Positions 5,100 through 34,234 of a DNA stretch of 40,634 nt are shown piece after piece; positions within the stretch are counted from its first letter, which is position 1, and every line of letters starts with the position of its first letter. Origin of the DNA: a virus (lineage: Duplodnaviria; Heunggongvirae; Uroviricota; Caudoviricetes); the IMG/VR virus record IMGVR_UViG_2585427727_000015. One strand, written 5' to 3'. The translations under genes and the position numbers were made by a program. The notes beneath the pieces are model-generated. The model was given only the letters and a program-made list of their open reading frames with translations. It made no database searches and was not told the origin of the DNA.

Positions 5100-5684
5100 T
5101 TATTGTTTGTTTTTTTCGTTCTGGTTGATGACAAATTCAATGTAACTTTCGATCTTTGCTTTCTCGGTTTCGGGTAACAATGCGTAGCGCGAGCGGTCAT
5201 AGTTGATGGTCGCAGGGTCGTGCGGGTGAATCAGTAATTCATAGCCGTGACGCCCGAATGCGGATGCAACATTCTCCAGGGTGGAAATGGAAACGCTGAC
5301 CTCATTGTTTAACAGGCGGCTGATTGTCACCTGGGCGACGCCGGATGCGCGGTGAAGTTTTCCCTGTGTTGAAAGGTCGCGGCTTTCGCTCATCCAGCGT
5401 TCCAGGTTGTGAGCCGCCAGCTGACCAATGTCGCTTGGGCCGACAGGCTGAAAACCTTCCTGAGAAAGCGAGCGATCGATATCAAGCCAGTTACGTGGTT
5501 TATTGGCGGCAGCTTCAATTTTTCGCGCAACCTGGTCGCCGATAACCTTCTTGCCAAGAGCCCAGCGGTTTACCAGATTTGCCTGAGTTCCAAGTTTTTC
5601 TGCCATCCGCGTCTGAACACCATTGAATTCACGGTCGATCAAGTCGTTGAGATTTTGCCTGCGGACGTCCTGGATACTTTTCAT
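5100..5684 (-). CDS. Prophage repressor (CI-like; XRE-type HTH, possibly two HTH-like segments; no S24 peptidase domain evident)
   Basis: 194-aa ORF divergent from Cro-like gene; HTH-like segment TRMAEKLGTQANLVNRWALGKK and a second ASGVAQVTISRLLNNEVSVSISTLENVASAFG; flanked on both sides by operator palindromes. Confidence 0.7.
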   Translation of the reverse strand: MKSIQDVRRQNLNDLIDREFNGVQTRMAEKLGTQANLVNRWALGKKVIGDQVARKIEAAANKPRNWLDIDRSLSQEGFQPVGPSDIGQLAAHNLERWMSESRDLSTQGKLHRASGVAQVTISRLLNNEVSVSISTLENVASAFGRHGYELLIHPHDPATINYDRSRYALLPETEKAKIESYIEFVINQNEKNKQ

Positions 5685-12071: not shown

Positions 12072-12668
12072 ATGATGCCTGCTGAACCTAAAACCTATAA
12101 ACGCAAATCAACGCAATTTAAGCCACTAACAGCAATGCAGGAGGCTTATTGCCAGTCATACATCAAAACGCCTGAAAACCAGACTCAGGCAGCGATTAAC
12201 GCAGGATTCTCCCCAAATACAGCGGCAGTTAAAGCCAGTGTCATGATGCGCGATGAACGCATTCAAAAACGGATTGCCGAGTTGATGGAGGAGCGCAACA
12301 AACGAATGCGCGTCAGTGCTGATTACGTTCTCATGCGCCTGGTGGAGATCGACCAGATGGACGTGATCGACATCCTCAACGACGATGGGAGCCTTAAACC
12401 AATCCGTGAGTGGCCGAAAATCTGGCGCACTACGCTTAGTGGCTTTGATCTGTCATCGACCATCATGAACATGAACGAGGATTCGATAGAGACAATCCTC
12501 AAAAAAATTAAATGGCCTGACAAGGTGAAGAACCTTGAGCTGATTGGTAAGCATGTTGATGTCAACGCGTTCAAAGAACGTCTGGATGTTAATGTGAATG
12601 TGACAATTGCTGATCGCATAGCAGCAGCCAGGAAGCGACTCAAAGAACGTCAGGATGGTAATCAGTGA
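12072..12668 (+). CDS. terS: Terminase small subunit
   Basis: FKPLTAMQEAYCQSY...AAINAGFSPNTAAVKASVMMRDERIQKRIAE matches the N-terminal pattern of Terminase_2-type small subunits; ATG 12072 with GGTGG SD; directly precedes terL. Confidence 0.75.
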   Translation: MMPAEPKTYKRKSTQFKPLTAMQEAYCQSYIKTPENQTQAAINAGFSPNTAAVKASVMMRDERIQKRIAELMEERNKRMRVSADYVLMRLVEIDQMDVIDILNDDGSLKPIREWPKIWRTTLSGFDLSSTIMNMNEDSIETILKKIKWPDKVKNLELIGKHVDVNAFKERLDVNVNVTIADRIAAARKRLKERQDGNQ

Positions 12669-14140
12669 CAGATACAGCGTTATCTCCTGAAGAGCAGTTG
12701 ATCGAGGATATTGCAGGGTTCACTCACGATCCGCTTGGCTATGCCCTCTATGCGTTCCCGTGGGGGGAAGAGGGGACTGAACTGGCACATGCTACCGGCC
12801 CACGTCAGTGGCAGGCTGATGCGTTCCGAGAGATACGTGATCACCTGCAGAATCCAGAGACGCGCTATCAGCCGCTTATGTTGGCACGCGCTTCTGGTCA
12901 CGGTATTGGTAAATCCGCATTCATCTCAATGCTGATCAACTGGGGCATGTCCACTTGCGAGGATTGTAAGGTCGTGGTGACCGCCAACACCGACAACCAG
13001 CTACGAACGAAGACCTGGCCGGAAATTATCAAGTGGTCGAACCTTGCTATCACGAAAGACTGGTTTACCTGTACCGCTACCGCGATGTACAGCAATGACC
13101 CAGGGCACGACAAGCGGTGGCGGGCTGACGCAATACCCTGGTCTGAGCACAACACTGAGGCATTCGCCGGACTACACAACGAGCGCAAACGCATCATCGT
13201 GGTATTCGATGAAGCGTCGAACATTGCCGATCTGGTGTGGGAGGTAGCAGAGGGTGCGCTGACGGACGAAGACACCGAAATCATCTGGGTGGCGTTCGGG
13301 AACCCGACGCGTAACACCGGGCGTTTCCGTGAATGTTTCCGCAAGTACAAACACCGCTGGAAGTGTGCGCAGATTGACAGCCGGACGGTGGAAGGCACTA
13401 ACAAACAGCAGTTGCAGAAATGGGTTGATGACTACGGGGAAGACAGCGACTTCGTTAAAATCCGTGTGCGCGGCATATTCCCTGATGCATCTGAATTGCA
13501 GTTTATCCCTACCGGTCTTACTGACGAGGCAATGAAACGGGTGGTAACCGCTGCGCAGGTTGCACATGCTCCGGTGATAATCGGCGTTGACCCGGCGTAC
13601 TCCGGCGTTGATGACGCTGTGATATACCTGCGGCAGGGGCTGCACAGTAAGGTGCTATGGACTGGCAACAAGACCACTGACGATCTGATTATGGCGAAGC
13701 GTATCGCTGACTTTGAAGACCAGTACCAGGCTGACGCAGTGTTCATCGACTTCGGTTACGGAACTGGTCTGAAGTCAATCGGTGACGGCTGGGGTCGTAC
13801 ATGGCAACTTGTTCCGTTCGGTGGCGCGTCTACTGACCCGCAGATGCTCAATAAGCGCGGGGAGATGTTCAACTCATGCAAGACGTGGCTGAGGCTGGGC
13901 GGCATGCTTGATGACCAGGAAACAGCGGACGACCTGTCGGCGGCAGAGTACAAAGTTCGAGTGGACGGTAAAATCGTTATCGAACCGAAGGAAGATATCA
14001 AGGAGCGGCTTGGGCGTTCTCCTGGTAAAGGCGATGCGCTACTGCTGACGTTTGCTTTCCCGGTCTCGAAACGCATAAATATACCAGGACAGCAAAGCCA
14101 GCAGGGAAGGGCCATAACGGATTATGACCCATTTGAATGA
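12665..14140 (+). CDS. terL: Terminase large subunit (ATPase/nuclease)
   Basis: 491-aa ORF, GTG start overlapping terS stop; Walker A-like GHGIGKS and downstream nuclease-like region. Confidence 0.9.
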   Translation: MTDTALSPEEQLIEDIAGFTHDPLGYALYAFPWGEEGTELAHATGPRQWQADAFREIRDHLQNPETRYQPLMLARASGHGIGKSAFISMLINWGMSTCEDCKVVVTANTDNQLRTKTWPEIIKWSNLAITKDWFTCTATAMYSNDPGHDKRWRADAIPWSEHNTEAFAGLHNERKRIIVVFDEASNIADLVWEVAEGALTDEDTEIIWVAFGNPTRNTGRFRECFRKYKHRWKCAQIDSRTVEGTNKQQLQKWVDDYGEDSDFVKIRVRGIFPDASELQFIPTGLTDEAMKRVVTAAQVAHAPVIIGVDPAYSGVDDAVIYLRQGLHSKVLWTGNKTTDDLIMAKRIADFEDQYQADAVFIDFGYGTGLKSIGDGWGRTWQLVPFGGASTDPQMLNKRGEMFNSCKTWLRLGGMLDDQETADDLSAAEYKVRVDGKIVIEPKEDIKERLGRSPGKGDALLLTFAFPVSKRINIPGQQSQQGRAITDYDPFE

Positions 14141-14143
14141 TTT

Positions 14144-14545
14144 TTACTTTTGTGATTTTGATTTTCTTTGATTGGCGGGATTTAAACCGCCATTTATATT
14201 TGCTAGTGGATTATTCAATAATGTACTGATTTCTGGGTTGTTAATTTTAGCAATGCCTAAATTTTTTGCAGACTCGTTAATCATTTGTACTATCTTTGGA
14301 TCAGCAAGTCTATTTGCAATTGAGTTGTTTGTTGTCAAATGAATACTTTCTTTATAAGACTTATATTCGTCTTTTAATTGTTTGTGAGCTTTTTCTAGAT
14401 TTTCTAGTTTAGATGTTGTTTCATCAATAACCTTAGATAATTCTAAAATACGAGCTTGTGCTGCGCGCAGTTCTATCTCCCTCTCTTTCAATTCAGATGT
14501 GAGTTGTCCCATTCTGTCTTTTGAAAGAATTATTTCCTCTTTCAT
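14144..14545 (-). CDS. AT-rich moron ORF, coiled-coil protein (133 aa), possibly C-terminal part of a frameshifted longer protein
   Basis: Low-GC ORF with heptad-like charged repeats; 5' end overlaps upstream ORF across an A8/T8 tract (14556-14563). Confidence 0.5.
   Translation of the reverse strand: MKEEIILSKDRMGQLTSELKEREIELRAAQARILELSKVIDETTSKLENLEKAHKQLKDEYKSYKESIHLTTNNSIANRLADPKIVQMINESAKNLGIAKINNPEISTLLNNPLANINGGLNPANQRKSKSQK
14173..14201 (+). terminator. Plus-strand intrinsic terminator ending the terS-terL transcript (embedded in 3' end of minus-strand moron ORF)
   Basis: TGGCGG-GATTTAAA-CCGCCA followed by TTTATATTT. Confidence 0.5.
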
Positions 14546-14993
14546 ATCTTGAATGTTTTTTTTCAGCGCCTGTTTTTACTTTTTCGTAAGTAATGTCTTT
14601 TTTAGCCAGCAATCTCTGTAGCCGTGTTTCACGTTGTATTTTTCTTGCCTTCCGGTGATTTTCGATTGAGTCATTATTATCAAGAGGCTTTGCTTGCCAT
14701 ACGTTAATGATATTGTTTACCCATGGTAATAGGCAGCAGATAGTAATTACAGATAAGCATGGATAAAACATAACAGTTTTCCATGTACTGTTATCTGAGA
14801 TATATGAAATTTTATCTATTATATTTGATTTGCTAAAAAATAGATAAAGAAGTGATTTCCAGTTGAAGGCGCACCAGGACATAACAAAAGCACCAAGCAC
14901 AGGGTTTTTAGCTCGATGCACGGCAGTGTTGGCAGTAGATAAAAACAGCTCTTTGAACGATTCGAACATACTAATTACCTTAAAGTTTTTCAT
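14493..14993 (-). CDS. AT-rich moron ORF, predicted membrane protein (about 166 aa, two hydrophobic segments), possibly N-terminal part of a frameshifted longer protein
   Basis: ATG 14993 (MKNFKV...); hydrophobic stretches NPVLGAFVMSWCAFNWKSLLYLFF and TVMFYPCLSVITICCLLPWVNNII; operator-like ATACC-N5-GGTAA at 14998-15012 overlaps RBS. Confidence 0.5.
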   Translation of the reverse strand: MKNFKVISMFESFKELFLSTANTAVHRAKNPVLGAFVMSWCAFNWKSLLYLFFSKSNIIDKISYISDNSTWKTVMFYPCLSVITICCLLPWVNNIINVWQAKPLDNNDSIENHRKARKIQRETRLQRLLAKKDITYEKVKTGAEKKHSRYERGNNSFKRQNGTTHI

Positions 14994-15028
14994 GATTATA
15001 CCTTTAAGGTAATTTGTGGTCATCAGGC

Positions 15029-15054
15029 AAAAAAAATGCCCGGACGAACCGGGC
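15029..15054 (-). terminator. Rho-independent terminator downstream of tRNA-Arg
   Basis: Minus strand GCCCGG-TTCGT-CCGGGC followed by T8. Confidence 0.7.
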
Positions 15055-15218
15055 GAACTGGAAGCAATGAGTTCTGCCTTCCGTGGCTGTACGGGTTTAC
15101 AGCATGAAGTCATCGCAATGGCGTCCTGCTGTAAAAAAGGACGGTGATAGTCCTTCAAGGGAAACCATCACCGCCAAGCACCTGGAACTTCTGGCATCAC
15201 GGTCCTTAGGCGTGATTC

Positions 15219-15295
15219 TGGCGTGGCATGCAGGATTCGAACCTGCGACCAACCGCTTAGAAGGCGGTTGCTCTGTCCAACTGAGCTAATGCCAC
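15219..15295 (-). tRNA. tRNA-Arg (anticodon UCU, reads AGA), argU-like
   Basis: 77-nt cloverleaf: acceptor GTGGCAT/ATGCCAC, D-arm GCTC...GAGC, anticodon stem ACCGC/GCGGT with loop CTTCTAA, T-arm GCAGG-TTCGAAT-CCTGC, 3' GCCA. Confidence 0.9.
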
Positions 15296-15943: not shown

Positions 15944-16255
15944 ATGGCGGAAACAACTAAAGAGCGATTGAACAAACAGTTCGCACAACTTGAAAGCGAG
16001 CGTCAGTCGTTCGAGCCGCACTGGCGCGAGTTGAGTGATTACATCAACCCGCGTGGTTCCCGCTTTCTGACTTCTGAGGTCAACCGTAACGATCGACGCA
16101 ATACACGCATTATTGATTCGACCGGGACTATGGCGGCGCGCACTCTCGCCAGCGGCATGATGTCAGGCATCACAAGCCCCGCGCGTCCGTGGTTTCGCCT
16201 GGCTACGCCAGATCCTGAAATGATGGATTATGGCCCTGTTAAGTTGTGGCTTTAG
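15944..16255 (+). CDS. Portal (head-tail connector) protein, N-terminal segment ending at in-frame TAG 16253-16255
   Basis: Same reading frame as 16271-17623 with a single stop between; GTMAARTLASGMMSGITSPARPWFRLATPD resembles (from memory) the T7 gp8 N-terminal region. Confidence 0.6.
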   Translation: MAETTKERLNKQFAQLESERQSFEPHWRELSDYINPRGSRFLTSEVNRNDRRNTRIIDSTGTMAARTLASGMMSGITSPARPWFRLATPDPEMMDYGPVKLWL

Positions 16256-16270
16256 GCGGGGCAGAACCGC

Positions 16271-17623
16271 ATGAACGATATGTTCAATAAGTCGAATCTC
16301 TATCAGTCGCTGCCGCAGTTATACGGAAGCCTCGGCACATACAGCACTGGCGCAATGGCGGTGCTGGAGGATGACGAGGACATCATTCGTACAATGCCAT
16401 TCCCGATAGGAAGTTACTACCTGGCTAACTCACCTCGTGGCAGTGTGGACACCTGTTTTCGCAAGTTCTCTATGACTGTTCGTCAGCTTGTTCAGGAGTT
16501 CGGACTAAATAACGTCAGCGAATCCGTAAAAAGCATGTGGGAAAGCGGCACCTACGAGAAGTGGATTGAAGTGATGCATTCGGTTTACCCGAACATTGAC
16601 CGCGATACATCGAAGCTGGATAGCAAGAACAAGCCATTCAAATCGGTTTATTACGAGGTTGGTGGCGATAACGACAAGTTGTTGCGTGAGTCCGGATTCG
16701 ATGAGTTTCCAATTATGGCTCCGCGCTGGGAAGTTAACGGCGAAGATGTTTATGGATCATCATGCCCGGGTATGCTGGCGCTTGGACCTGTTAAGGCATT
16801 GCAGCTTCTCCAGAAGCGCAAGTCGCAGTTGATTGATAAAGCCACCAATCCGCCGATGGTTGCTCCGACTTCCCTCAAGAATCAGCGCGCCTCCCTTCTT
16901 CCTGGCGACATCACGTATATCGATCAGATTACTGGTCAGGATGGCTTCAGGCCTGCTTATCTGGTTAACCCCAGTACAGCAGATTTGGTGGCAGACATTC
17001 AGGACACTCGTCAAATCATTAACAGCGCCTACTTTGTCGATCTGTTCATGATGTTGCAGAACATCAATACCCGCTCGATGCCTGTTGAAGCGGTGATCGA
17101 AATGAAAGAAGAAAAACTTCTGATGTTGGGGCCGGTTCTGGAGCGTCTGAACGACGAATGTCTTAATCCTCTCATTGACCGCGCTTTCTCGATGATGGTG
17201 CGTAAAAACATGCTGCCGCCACCGCCTGACGCGATGGAAGGCATGCCCCTGAAGGTCGAATACATTTCCGTCATGGCTCAGGCGCAGAAGTCTATCGGCC
17301 TGTCCAGTCTGGCGTCCACGGTTAACTTCATTGGTCAACTTGCGCAAGCGAAACCAGAAGCTCTCGACAAACTCAACGTTGATCAGGCGATCGATGCATT
17401 CGCTGATATGTCCGGAGTGTCTCCAACCGTCATTGTTCCGCAGGAACAGGTTGAGCAGGCTCGCCAGCAACGGGCACAGCAGCAACAGCAGCAACAAATG
17501 ATGGCGATGGGGATGGCGGCGGCACAGGGTGCCAAGACGCTAAGCGAAGCTAAAACTTCGGATCCGAGTGTTTTGTCAGCTATGGCGAATGCAGTTAGTG
17601 GTCAGGGTGGGCAATCACAATGA
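16271..17623 (+). CDS. Portal (head-tail connector) protein, main body
   Basis: 450-aa ORF; Gln/Ala/Met-rich C-terminal tail (QQRAQQQQQQQMMAMGMAAAQGA) typical of T7-type portals; position between terminase and scaffold/capsid. Confidence 0.8.
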   Translation: MNDMFNKSNLYQSLPQLYGSLGTYSTGAMAVLEDDEDIIRTMPFPIGSYYLANSPRGSVDTCFRKFSMTVRQLVQEFGLNNVSESVKSMWESGTYEKWIEVMHSVYPNIDRDTSKLDSKNKPFKSVYYEVGGDNDKLLRESGFDEFPIMAPRWEVNGEDVYGSSCPGMLALGPVKALQLLQKRKSQLIDKATNPPMVAPTSLKNQRASLLPGDITYIDQITGQDGFRPAYLVNPSTADLVADIQDTRQIINSAYFVDLFMMLQNINTRSMPVEAVIEMKEEKLLMLGPVLERLNDECLNPLIDRAFSMMVRKNMLPPPPDAMEGMPLKVEYISVMAQAQKSIGLSSLASTVNFIGQLAQAKPEALDKLNVDQAIDAFADMSGVSPTVIVPQEQVEQARQQRAQQQQQQQMMAMGMAAAQGAKTLSEAKTSDPSVLSAMANAVSGQGGQSQ

Positions 17624-33920: not shown

Positions 33921-34078
33921 GATGGCGTCTCCACTTAGCGAATTACATCACCACCGCTGAGACCAATCAGATGGTGGTGAACTGAACGGAGTTGGTCTTA
34001 CCGGCCTAAGTGGTACCGGCGTCCTTTCGGACCCCCATTCAGCCCACCATAATTCTGGCATGACTGTGCTATACGCAT

Positions 34079-34234
34079 AAAAAAACCACGTCTGGCGTGG
34101 TATGCGCCACTTAGTAATCCGGGAGACCAATCCCGGCACTGGATTTTGCCAGTGCCTGATTACTATGGCACAAGAGGAGTGCGATGTAAATTTACCGCAA
34201 AGGTAAATATAAGCACTCCACTTGGTAATTGCAA
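34079..34234 (-). promoter_or_regulatory. Promoter (TTGCAA-N17-TATATT) + operator at +1 (34192-34206) + structured leader + intrinsic terminator (34079-34100) upstream of ant; candidate attenuator or about 120-nt sRNA
   Basis: -35 34229-34234, -10 34206-34211 on minus strand; two-hairpin element 34113-34164; terminator CCACG-CCAGA-CGTGG + T7 at 34079-34100. Confidence 0.45.

What the first reader, a model, noticed from the sequence alone, without database searches (positions are those of the whole stretch)
14144..15012. AT-rich minus-strand moron split at an A8/T8 homopolymer: candidate phase-variable or frameshift-inactivated membrane/coiled-coil protein
Between terL and the portal operon, on the opposite strand, two low-GC ORFs overlap by 53 nt in different frames. 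The overlap contains a run of 8 T (14556-14563). Removing one base fuses them into a single protein of about 283 aa with two N-terminal hydrophobic segments and a C-terminal coiled coil; the downstream frame is open for only about 10 codons before its ATG, so the tract sits exactly in the shift window. This arrangement is typical of slipped-strand phase variation, transcriptional slippage, or a recent inactivating indel. A membrane-anchored coiled-coil moron at a packaging/head junction is a plausible superinfection-exclusion or abortive-infection determinant with no family I can name. An operator-like site overlaps its RBS.
Basis: partly seen in the sequence, partly recalled or inferred. Interest (0 to 1): 0.7.

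Follow-up and report, generated by a model that had tools for sequence, protein, structure and literature searches.

The report
Frameshift-broken prophage accessory gene
One extra A in a run of seven has split a normally single, uncharacterised membrane/coiled-coil gene of an epsilon15-like E. coli prophage into two overlapping ORFs; this is an ordinary recent inactivating mutation in one bacterial clone, not a phase-variation switch.

Summary
Two AT-rich minus-strand ORFs (14493-14993 and 14144-14545) overlap by 53 nt around a T8/A8 run at 14556-14563, and deleting one base fuses them.

Every relative examined has A7 and a single intact ORF:
- 18 of 18 complete E. coli genomes with this allele
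- 9 of 9 IMG/VR loci
- 6 of 6 metagenome contigs

The exact in-frame 282-aa protein also exists in other strains. Most alleles of the family have no long tract at all (GAAAAAGAC, Asp146). Conserved residues run straight across the shift site.

A8 occurs only in two assemblies whose names suggest sister isolates (E. coli 5-366-08_S1_C1/C3) and in two independently assembled read sets. It is therefore a real, recent +1 slippage mutation and most likely a loss-of-function allele. Phase variation and programmed frameshifting are not supported.

The gene belongs to PHROG 4780 (unknown function), part of a large phage-associated family. Members have a conserved ~160-aa N-terminal membrane module and a swappable coiled-coil C-terminus. 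It has no Pfam, PADLOC, NCBIfam or PDB match.

The conserved start is Met9 (14969). It is one copy of a dispersed TTACC-N5-GGTAA motif (12 copies against 0.24 expected) that also flanks the putative repressor gene.

The parts
14144..14969 (-). Full extent of the disrupted gene (PHROG 4780 family). It would encode 274 aa from the conserved Met9 start if the tract were A7. In this window it is broken by a +1 insertion.
   Evidence: Relatives carry one ORF here. hmmscan against phrog_4780 gives E 1.1e-114 over 269 of 275 profile positions. Met9 is invariant in 70 homologues.
14556..14563 (-). A8 homopolymer (T8 on the + strand). The ancestral state is A7 (GAA AAA AAC = Glu-Lys-Asn). This is the site of the +1 insertion.
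   Evidence: Alignment with L001-L003. It is the only indel in 15 kb against strain S87. A7 is found in 18/18, 9/9 and 6/6 other copies.
14493..14993 (-). Upstream fragment ORF: 166 aa from the first ATG, 158 aa from Met9. It holds family residues 1-145 followed by a 21-aa out-of-frame tail (HSRYERGNNSFKRQNGTTHI).
   Evidence: The exact sequence is deposited as WP_248783546.1, KEJ74323.1 and KEL69874.1.
14144..14545 (-). Downstream fragment ORF (133 aa). It starts at the family's invariant internal Met150 and encodes the last ~16 residues of the conserved module plus the variable coiled-coil tail. No good Shine-Dalgarno sequence precedes it.
14995..15023 (-). Sigma-70-type promoter of the gene: ATGACC, 17-nt spacer, TATAAT (10 of 12 consensus matches). 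The -10 box ends one base before the non-conserved first ATG.
   Evidence: Promoter scan. Both boxes keep their positions in diverged alleles from E. coli, Klebsiella and Cronobacter.
14998..15012 (.). Operator-like palindrome TTACCTTAAAGGTAT (core TACC-N5-GGTA), lying in the promoter spacer and overlapping the -10 box.
   Evidence: The window holds 12 exact TACC-N5-GGTA sites against 0.24 expected. The arms are kept in 64 of 67 IMG/VR loci while the centre varies. The palindrome is absent from the stand-alone Serratia copy and the lambdoid KO-TP1 copy.
15219..15295 (-). tRNA-Arg (anticodon UCU, reads AGA) on the same strand, upstream of the gene.
   Evidence: ARAGORN and Rfam tRNA at 73 bits. 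The gene uses AGA for 5 of its 12 Arg codons; terL and portal use it for none.
15029..15054 (-). Intrinsic-terminator-like hairpin GCCCGGTTCGTCCGGGC followed by a T8 run. It separates the tRNA from the gene's promoter. A second hairpin lies at 15140-15175.
   Evidence: Terminator scan. The hairpin is conserved in relatives.
14173..14192 (+). Terminator-like hairpin on the + strand inside the 3' end of the gene. It could end the terS-terL transcript, which converges on this gene.
   Evidence: Terminator scan. This is a consensus match only.

Best explanation
The window carries a recent loss-of-function allele of a normally intact accessory gene of epsilon15/phiV10-like (Uetakevirus-like) prophages.

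Ancestral state. The gene is a single ORF of 274 aa from the conserved Met9 (282 aa from a non-conserved upstream ATG). In one sub-lineage an Asp146-to-Asn change (GAC to AAC) turned GAAAAAGAC into an A7 run.

The mutation. Replication slippage then added one A (A7 to A8) in the ancestor of E. coli 5-366-08_S1_C1/C3. The shift cuts the protein inside its conserved N-terminal module. Invariant residues I147, Q148, M150, E152, I154, S157, G162 and T165 are lost from the upstream fragment. The coiled-coil tail is left behind a weak internal start. The likely result is little or no functional protein.

The intact gene. It is an autonomous cassette: tRNA-Arg(UCU), terminators, a sigma-70-like promoter, and the CDS. 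The promoter spacer holds a TACC-N5-GGTA palindrome. The same motif flanks the divergent promoters next to the prophage's HTH repressor gene and precedes most other transcription units.

Inferred regulation and function. I infer that the phage repressor shuts the gene off in the lysogen and that it is expressed on induction or infection. The protein is predicted to be anchored in the inner membrane by an N-terminal helical hairpin, with a cytoplasmic coiled coil whose sequence is swapped between alleles. My best guess is a role in phage-phage or phage-host conflict, such as exclusion or abortive infection. That step is inference only, with probability about 0.3.

Shown versus inferred:
- Shown: the insertion, the ancestral single ORF, the family membership, and conservation of the promoter and palindrome.
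- Inferred: loss of function, repressor control, membrane topology, and biological role.
For: Ancestry and rarity of A8:
- L001-L003 differ from the window by one A in the tract and are annotated as one 849-nt CDS.
- The tract insertion is the only indel in the 15-kb block that is 99.5% identical to strain S87.
- All 18 complete E. coli genomes with this allele match with a span one base shorter than the query.
- 9 of 9 IMG/VR loci and 6 of 6 metagenome contigs have A7 and an intact ORF.
- The exact in-frame 282-aa protein exists in 6 other contigs. Near-identical 282-aa proteins occur on hundreds of contigs.
- The split products occur only in two NCBI assemblies and two Logan read sets.

The mutation is real:
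- A8 is reproduced in JONE01000042.1 (L008) and in the independently assembled SRR1186634 (L009). L009 is otherwise identical to the window over 6.4 kb except for two portal bases.

The tract is not a conserved feature:
- Most alleles read GAAAAAGAC or GAGAAAGAC, encoding Asp146.

The shift falls within conserved sequence:
- T141, G142, E144, I147, Q148, M150, E152, I154, S157, G162 and T165 are invariant in 70 sequences.

Family:
- phrog_4780 matches at E 1.1e-114.
- 115 representative clusters match at E <= 1e-10 and 1221 at E <= 1e-3, with the domain always N-terminal.
- Distant members map to PHROGs 4780, 13369 and 35327.

Cassette and regulation:
- Promoter scan scores 10 of 12.
- The -35 box, -10 box and palindrome arms are conserved in E. 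coli, Klebsiella and Cronobacter alleles.
- The motif count is 12 against 0.24 expected, and sites bracket PL-like and PR-like promoters beside the HTH_3 repressor gene.

Rescue is unlikely (literature):
- In many bacterial genomes selection against slippage-prone A/T runs becomes evident at 9 nt (PMC1088944).
- E. coli RNA polymerase slippage in homopolymers gives mostly insertions, rarely deletions (PMC5574713). Rescue here needs a one-base deletion or a two-base insertion.
Against: - No reads were available, so low-level length heterogeneity at the tract within a culture cannot be excluded.
- Loss of function is inferred from conservation, not measured.
- Some full-length protein could arise from rare RNA polymerase slippage or a +1 ribosomal slip on A AAA AAA C. 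A slip that gives GAA AAA AAC would reproduce the wild-type sequence exactly.
- Met150, where the downstream fragment starts, is invariant in the family. An internal start used natively cannot be excluded.
- Repressor binding to the palindrome has not been demonstrated.
- The biological role has no direct support: there is no Pfam, PADLOC, NCBIfam, PDB or BFVD match.
- The AlphaFold2 model has only moderate confidence (pLDDT 70, pTM 0.27).
Confidence: 0.85

Rival explanations
1. Phase-variable contingency gene. The homopolymer is an evolved ON/OFF switch that flips at high frequency by slipped-strand mispairing, and this window caught the OFF state.
For: The shift lies exactly in an A/T homopolymer within the overlap window. 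A one-base change restores a conserved ORF.
Against: - The tract is A7 in 33 of 33 other DNA copies of this allele, with no A6, A8 or A9 found.
- The tract is not conserved in the family; most alleles have A5-G-A.
- The ancestral run is only 7 nt.
- Both sister assemblies and both read sets show the same A8 state.
- The intact protein is on hundreds of contigs, against a handful carrying the split.
Confidence: 0.04
2. Sequencing or assembly artefact. The extra A is a homopolymer error in the deposited assembly and the gene is really intact.
For: - Homopolymers are classic error sites.
- The same NCBI assemblies carry two clustered G/T differences in the portal gene (16253 and 16260, one creating an amber codon). 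These are absent from the Logan assembly, so the deposited sequence may contain errors.
Against: - A8 is present in two NCBI assemblies and in two read sets assembled independently by a different pipeline.
- It is the only indel in 15 kb against the closest relative, so there is no general homopolymer-error signature.
- The other 7-8-nt runs in that aligned block show no length differences.
Confidence: 0.05
3. Leaky or recoded allele. The A8 run lets RNA polymerase, or the ribosome by a +1 slip of tRNA-Lys, restore the frame in a useful fraction of products. The gene would then be attenuated, or would yield two products, rather than being dead.
For: - A +1 slip on GAA AAA AAA C would regenerate the exact wild-type sequence (sequence).
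- Slippage on A runs rescues frameshifted genes elsewhere: tssM1 with A11 at about 20% (PMC4256274), and productive slippage has been suggested on A8 in some IS elements (PMC1088944).
Against: - The run is 8 nt, below the 9-nt length at which selection against slippage becomes evident in many bacterial genomes (PMC1088944).
- Rescue requires a one-base deletion or a two-base insertion in the mRNA, whereas E. coli slippage in homopolymers is dominated by single-base insertions and deletions there are rare (PMC5574713).
- No homologue conserves a two-ORF layout.
- The shift site has no rare or stop codon of the kind that normally drives +1 ribosomal frameshifting (my knowledge of prfB-type sites).
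Confidence: 0.1
4. Two real, separately functional overlapping genes: a membrane protein and a soluble coiled-coil protein.
For: The split lies about 20 codons upstream of the boundary between the conserved N-terminal module and the swappable C-terminal module. The downstream ORF starts at an invariant Met.
Against: - All homologues are single ORFs across E. coli, Klebsiella, Citrobacter, Enterobacter, Cronobacter and Serratia.
- Invariant residues span the junction.
- The upstream fragment ends in a 21-aa out-of-frame tail.
- No Shine-Dalgarno sequence precedes the downstream ATG.
Confidence: 0.02

Closest known systems
Homopolymer slippage pseudogenes in prophages and bacterial genomes (sporadic replication-slippage frameshifts)
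   Same: A single-base length change in a short A/T run splits one ORF into two overlapping ORFs. The allele is confined to one small set of near-identical isolates, and the intact allele is common elsewhere.
   Different: Nothing unusual. The only particular point is that the A7 run was itself created by an Asp-to-Asn substitution within this sub-lineage of alleles.
Transcriptional-slippage rescue of interrupted genes (Citrobacter rodentium tssM1 with A11; Thermus thermophilus dnaX and Shigella mxiE with 9-nt runs)
   Same: A poly-A run sits just upstream of a premature stop, with the rest of the protein in another frame.
   Different: - Those runs are 9-11 nt, and the tssM arrangement also occurs in a second species (PMC4256274, PMC1088944).
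- Here the run is 8 nt and the two-ORF layout is unique to one clone.
- Rescue here would need the disfavoured deletion direction (PMC5574713).
PHROG 4780, with related PHROGs 13369 and 35327 (phage protein families of unknown function)
   Same: The repaired protein matches phrog_4780 end to end (E 1.1e-114). Distant relatives map to the three PHROGs interchangeably.
   Different: The family has no known function, so membership names the protein but does not explain it.
Phage membrane proteins that exclude superinfecting phages (P22 SieA, HK97 gp15, T4 Imm/Sp)
   Same: A small phage-encoded protein predicted to sit in the inner membrane. It is encoded on an autonomous AT-rich unit inserted among structural genes on the opposite strand. 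Alleles are diverse while the flanking genes are conserved.
   Different: - No sequence similarity was found.
- P22 SieA is 162-164 aa with three transmembrane helices and the motif FxRYPxEAxxFNK, and lies between genes 16 and 9 of P22-like phages (PMC10883804).
- This protein has one strong and one weaker hydrophobic helix, a ~110-residue coiled coil, and a different locus.
- Its promoter carries the putative repressor operator, so it may not be expressed in the lysogen at all.
Dispersed-operator repressor networks (phage P1 C1 operators; mycobacteriophage L5 gp71 stoperators). Recalled from my own knowledge.
   Same: One short motif recurs at the head of many transcription units across the prophage, including the immunity region, an ant/C4-RNA region and structural operons.
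   Different: - The motif here is a symmetric TTACC-N5-GGTAA palindrome, unlike the asymmetric P1 and L5 sites.
- Binding by the HTH protein at 5100-5684 is inferred, not shown.

Membership tests
Phase-variable (contingency) locus with a homopolymeric switch | Tract length is polymorphic among closely related strains or copies | tested here: not met
   A7 in 18/18 complete genomes, 9/9 IMG/VR loci and 6/6 metagenome contigs. A8 occurs only in one small set of near-identical assemblies.
Phase-variable (contingency) locus with a homopolymeric switch | The repeat tract is maintained across orthologues | tested here: not met
   Most alleles read GAAAAAGAC, GAGAAAGAC or GAAAAGGAC (Asp146). Only the Asn146 sub-lineage has A7.
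Phase-variable (contingency) locus with a homopolymeric switch | Length heterogeneity within a clonal population (read level) | not testable with these tools
   No reads were available. The two NCBI assemblies and two Logan read sets all show A8.
Programmed frameshift or transcriptional-slippage gene | The two-ORF arrangement is conserved in homologues | tested here: not met
   Homologues are single ORFs of 240-283 aa.
Programmed frameshift or transcriptional-slippage gene | Slippery run long enough for efficient RNA polymerase slippage (about 9 or more A/T in many bacterial genomes) | tested here: not met
   The run is 8 nt. The threshold comes from PMC1088944, and the required direction (deletion) is rare in E. 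coli (PMC5574713).
Programmed frameshift or transcriptional-slippage gene | Full-length product made from the shifted gene | not testable with these tools
   Needs a western blot, mass spectrometry or a reporter fusion.
PHROG 4780 | Full-length profile match | tested here: met
   E 1.1e-114, residues 9-278 against profile positions 1-269 of 275.
Moron (autonomous transcription unit inserted in a phage operon) | Own promoter and terminator, and atypical base composition | tested here: met
   Promoter scores 10 of 12 and is conserved. Terminator-like hairpins lie upstream, and the gene converges on terL. GC is 33.7% against 48.5% for the window.
Moron (autonomous transcription unit inserted in a phage operon) | Expressed from the repressed prophage | tested here: inconclusive
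   The promoter spacer holds the same palindrome that flanks the PL-like and PR-like promoters next to the repressor gene. That argues for repression in the lysogen, but no expression data exist.
Moron (autonomous transcription unit inserted in a phage operon) | Sporadic presence in otherwise collinear phages | tested here: met
   The gene is present at the terL-portal junction in E. coli, Klebsiella and Cronobacter relatives. The phiV10-group phage records match only the first 71-121 bases of the query (window 14100-15100, minus strand), and only 5 deposited phages encode a homologue.
P22 SieA-type superinfection exclusion protein | About 162 aa, three transmembrane helices, motif FxRYPxEAxxFNK, located between genes 16 and 9 of P22-like phages | tested here: not met
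   The features are taken from PMC10883804. This protein is 274 aa, lacks the motif (sequence) and sits between terL and portal.
Known anti-phage defence systems (PADLOC-DB v2) | Significant match to a defence-protein model | tested here: not met
   Only weak matches restricted to the coiled-coil region (residues ~105-258). The best is LmuB at E 3.5e-4 and 17.9 bits.

The most novel reading that the evidence does not exclude
The intact gene may represent an unrecognised class of phage conflict protein. The family is large and uncatalogued in Pfam (115 clusters at E <= 1e-10, up to 1221 at E <= 1e-3). Members have a conserved ~160-aa membrane module fused to a rapidly swapped coiled-coil module. 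The gene is held at a fixed terL-portal cassette, under a conserved putative repressor operator, in Uetakevirus-like prophages of several genera. A stand-alone copy that has lost the operator palindrome is kept in Serratia chromosomes. If it is an exclusion or abortive-infection determinant whose specificity lies in the coiled coil, the A8 allele is a ready-made natural knock-out, paired with an otherwise identical A7 allele in other strains.
Probability: 0.2. Interest if true: 0.55.

Novelty: new member of a known kind. Interest (0 to 1): 0.2.

Why it matters
The split itself matters little. It is one more slippage pseudogene and should be annotated as a disrupted copy of a single gene, not as two genes or a switch.

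Three by-products are more useful:
- The start codon and promoter of a widespread uncharacterised phage gene are now defined by conservation.
- The gene's promoter carries a palindrome that recurs about 12 times across the prophage. The same sites appear at equivalent positions in relatives from E. coli, Klebsiella and Cronobacter. That points to a dispersed repressor-operator network in epsilon15-like phages, which I did not find described in the papers I searched.
- Naturally occurring A7 and A8 alleles with otherwise identical protein sequence offer a clean pair for testing what the protein does.

Tried and rejected
- Pfam, NCBIfam and PADLOC scans of the repaired protein gave only matches to coiled-coil proteins below the curated cut-offs or at weak E-values (ATG16, SMC, RNase Y, LmuB, JetC).
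- A PDB profile search gave only matches in the coiled-coil region, with E above 0.04.
- The AlphaFold2 model from 69 homologues is all-helical with pLDDT 70 and pTM 0.27. Foldseek against BFVD found nothing at E <= 0.001. The AFDB library was unavailable. I ran no further search on an elongated helical model.
- Pfam scans of 10 longer distant relatives, looking for an informative fused domain, found none.
- P22 SieA was considered and rejected on length, topology, motif and locus.
- I first read the portal amber codon as evidence of prophage decay. I withdrew that because the Logan assembly with the same A8 has an intact portal.
- A search for the isolate name in the literature found nothing. 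That C1 and C3 are sister isolates is inferred from their names only.
- A search for published operator sites of phiV10/epsilon15-type phages found no description.
- A -1 ribosomal frameshift on A-AAA-AAA was considered and rejected by frame arithmetic: it enters the third frame, not the needed one.
Full report
**1. What is in the sequence**

The window is an epsilon15/phiV10-like (Uetakevirus-like) prophage.
- It starts at the integrase next to guaA and ends in yfgI/yfgH, as shown by collinearity with E. coli S87.
- It agrees with a published Uetakevirus that integrates at the 3' end of guaA and carries one complement-strand tRNA (PMC9782041).

The minus strand between terL (12665-14140) and the portal operon (15723 onward) carries, in order:
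- tRNA-Arg(UCU) at 15219-15295;
- two terminator-like hairpins (15140-15175; 15038-15054 followed by a T run);
- a promoter-like site, ATGACC-17-TATAAT, at 15023-14995;

GC is 33.7% against 48.5% for the window.

**2. The single ORF is ancestral and A8 is a rare derived state**

The three closest complete-genome relatives (99.4-99.7% identity) and a 94% relative differ at the tract by exactly one A. Three of the four inspected (L001-L003 among them) are annotated with one 849-nt CDS; L003 carries an extra 2-nt deletion near the 3' end, giving a 780-nt CDS. Over the 15-kb block that is 99.5% identical to S87, the tract is the only indel.

| Source | Copies of this allele | Tract |
|---|---|---|
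| Complete E. coli genomes | 18 | match span one base shorter than the query, as for A7 |
| IMG/VR viral contigs | 9 | A7, intact 274-aa ORF from Met9 |
| Metagenome contigs (pattern allowed A6-A9) | 6 | A7 |

An exact-sequence look-up showed:
- The repaired 282-aa protein exists, residue for residue, on 6 other contigs.
- Near-identical 282-aa proteins occur on hundreds of contigs.
- The split products occur only in E. coli 5-366-08_S1_C1 and _C3 (WP_248783546.1, KEJ74323.1, KEL69874.1) and in Logan assemblies.

The NCBI contig JONE01000042.1 differs from the window by 1 nt in 6.5 kb. The Logan contig from SRR1186634 is identical to the window over 6.4 kb apart from two portal bases. Both carry A8. 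A8 is therefore reproduced by two assemblers and several libraries, so it is a real mutation. It is confined to what the isolate names suggest is one clone; that reading of the names is my inference (one search found no paper).

**3. The tract is not a designed switch**

- In most alleles the codons read GAA AAA GAC (Glu-Lys-Asp), an A5 run.
- Only the sub-lineage with Asn146 (AAC) has A7. The slippery run is thus a by-product of one substitution.
- A 70-sequence alignment shows invariant residues on both sides of the site: T141, G142, E144, I147, Q148, M150, E152, I154, S157, G162, T165.
- The frameshift therefore cuts through a constrained module. It removes eight invariant positions from the upstream fragment and adds a 21-residue junk tail.

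Rescue looks inefficient.
- The mRNA would need a one-base deletion or a two-base insertion.
- In E. coli, homopolymer slippage by RNA polymerase is overwhelmingly single-base insertion, and deletions inside runs are rare (PMC5574713).
- In many bacterial genomes selection against slippage-prone runs becomes evident at 9 nt (PMC1088944).
- The well-documented rescue case, tssM1, uses A11 (PMC4256274).
- A -1 ribosomal slip enters the wrong frame.
- A +1 slip would regenerate the wild-type sequence, but the site lacks the slow A-site codon that usually drives such events (my knowledge).

**4. What the gene is**

- The repaired protein matches PHROG 4780 end to end (E 1.1e-114, unknown function). 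It has weaker matches to PHROGs 13369 and 35327.
- Nothing real appears in Pfam, NCBIfam, PADLOC, PDB or BFVD.
- An exhaustive search with the upstream fragment (the N-terminal module) found 115 representative clusters at E <= 1e-10 and 1221 at E <= 1e-3.
- In nearly all listed hits the domain starts within the first few residues. Proteins are mostly 200-400 aa. The longer ones add only more coiled coil.
- Distant members, from Serratia, Pantoea and Cronobacter, are all 'hypothetical'.
- All homologues start at Met9 (MLES/MFES). The window's first ATG is not conserved, so the real start is 14969.

Structure:
- AlphaFold2 gives an all-helical protein with helices at 4-27, 31-53, 58-68, 71-101, 108-139 and 142-216, then a disordered tail (pLDDT 70).
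- Only residues 72-98 are strongly hydrophobic. Residues 31-53 are marginal.
- The K/R-rich segment after the second helix (12 K/R against 6 D/E) suggests the coiled coil is cytoplasmic. This is an inference from the positive-inside rule.
- Alleles share the first 505 nt of the query at about 92% identity and then diverge completely. The C-terminal module is therefore exchanged by recombination while the flanking terL and portal stay 97-100% identical.

Genomic context:
- The gene sits at the terL-portal junction in E. coli, Klebsiella and Cronobacter Uetakevirus-like prophages.
- In the lambdoid Klebsiella phage KO-TP1 it lies on the opposite strand between the replication and nin regions.
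- In Serratia marcescens it is a lone chromosomal gene between an MFS transporter gene and lysS/prfB.

**5. Regulation: the 'operator-like site'**

The palindrome TACCTTAAAGGTA (14999-15011) lies in the spacer of the promoter and overlaps the -10 box. It does not overlap the RBS of the real start (AAGG at 14981-14978).

It is one of 12 exact TACC-N5-GGTA sites in the window, against 0.24 expected, and 0 of 100 shuffles reach that count. With flanks, 15 sites match at least 9 of 10 positions of TTACC..GGTAA, against 1.36 expected.

Site positions:
- 4967 and 5029 bracket a leftward TTGACA-17-AATTAT promoter just beyond the 3' end of a 194-aa HTH_3 protein gene (5100-5684).
- 5741 and 5788 lie between that gene and the divergent cro-like gene. 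Site 5788 sits in the spacer of TTGATT-18-AATATT.
- Other sites precede the DUF1064/nin-like genes, the terS start, the portal operon (15619) and the BRO-N/ant region. That last region carries Rfam C4 antisense RNA and isrK hits.

Conservation:
- At the gene's promoter the arms are kept in 64 of 67 IMG/VR loci while the central five bases vary.
- The same sites recur at equivalent positions in Klebsiella and Cronobacter relatives.
- The palindrome is missing from the Serratia stand-alone copy, which has a plain TTTACA-16-TATAAT, and from the lambdoid KO-TP1 copy.

The simplest reading is that this is the operator of the prophage's main repressor, dispersed over the genome much as in P1 or L5 (comparison from my own knowledge). 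The gene would then be off in the lysogen and on after induction or infection. This is inference, because no binding or expression data exist. It does not exclude an exclusion function during lytic growth (as for T4 Imm/Sp) or in the operator-less chromosomal copies.

**6. Verdict**

- Phase variation (0.04), artefact (0.05) and two real genes (0.02) are unlikely.
- Some leakiness (0.1) cannot be excluded and is compatible with the main reading.
- The function of the intact protein is unknown. My best guess is a membrane-anchored conflict or exclusion protein with a specificity-bearing coiled coil. That rests only on architecture, allelic diversity at a fixed locus and retention outside phages.
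- As a finding it is ordinary (interest 0.2). The family and the operator network are the parts worth a follow-up.

Noticed in passing
window 4967, 5029, 5741, 5788, 6126, 8047, 8110, 12041, 12058, 14999, 15619, 33178, 34193, 34574, 37673: A dispersed palindrome TTACC-N5-GGTAA: 12 exact core sites against 0.24 expected. Sites sit at the heads of most transcription units. These include both sides of the HTH repressor gene (5100-5684), the terS start, the portal operon and the ant/C4-RNA region. Equivalent positions are conserved in E. coli, Klebsiella and Cronobacter relatives. It looks like a P1/L5-style dispersed repressor-operator network in epsilon15-like phages. I found no description of it in the papers searched.
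   Followed up: partly
window 16253 and 16260 (portal gene 15944-17623): The portal ORF is interrupted by an in-frame amber codon (GAG to TAG, codon 104), with a second G/T change 7 nt away (V106G). Both are present in NCBI contig JONE01000042.1. Both are absent from the Logan assembly of SRR1186634, which is otherwise identical and shares the A8 frameshift. This is either a real, later mutation in some isolates or an error in the deposited assemblies.
   Followed up: partly
window 33970-34155, minus strand: Rfam gathering-level hits to C4 antisense RNA (61 bits) and isrK Hfq-binding RNA (68 bits). They lie next to a BRO-N/antirepressor-like region, giving a P1-type immI-like module. Two of the TTACC-N5-GGTAA sites lie just upstream of it.
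   Followed up: no
window 15219-15295 and 14144-14969: The tRNA-Arg(UCU) sits directly upstream of the AT-rich gene on the same strand. That gene uses AGA for 5 of its 12 Arg codons, whereas terL and portal use none. The tRNA differs from the S87 copy by one base (15271).
   Followed up: partly
window 6778 (relative to S87, L004 ~8583): A 24-bp in-frame deletion removes one copy of a repeated CCCAAAAACGGGA-containing unit inside the DnaT-like/O-like replication gene. This looks like one fewer iteron in an origin embedded in the initiator gene.
   Followed up: no
L090 7001-7897 (Serratia marcescens CAMKIN010000002.1): A distant family member stands alone in the chromosome between an MFS transporter gene and lysS/prfB. 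It has a plain sigma-70-like promoter that lacks the palindrome, and it is found on 19 contigs. This suggests a copy retained by the host after loss of the phage.
   Followed up: partly
window 14144-14508 versus 14509-14969; loci L007, L010: Alleles at this locus share the 5' ~505 nt of the query at about 92% identity and then become unalignable, while the flanking terL and portal stay 97-100% identical. The C-terminal coiled-coil module is therefore a recombinational diversity hot spot. Other broken alleles also exist: L003 (2-nt deletion), L042, L058, L081, and the 155-aa and 163-aa proteins P0142, P0148 and P0004.
   Followed up: partly
window 5100-5684, minus strand: The putative prophage repressor (194 aa) has an HTH_3 domain at residues 106-147 and a second weak YdaS-like HTH match at residues 21-61. 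No peptidase S24 match was found. That would fit antirepressor-driven rather than RecA-cleavage induction.
   Followed up: no
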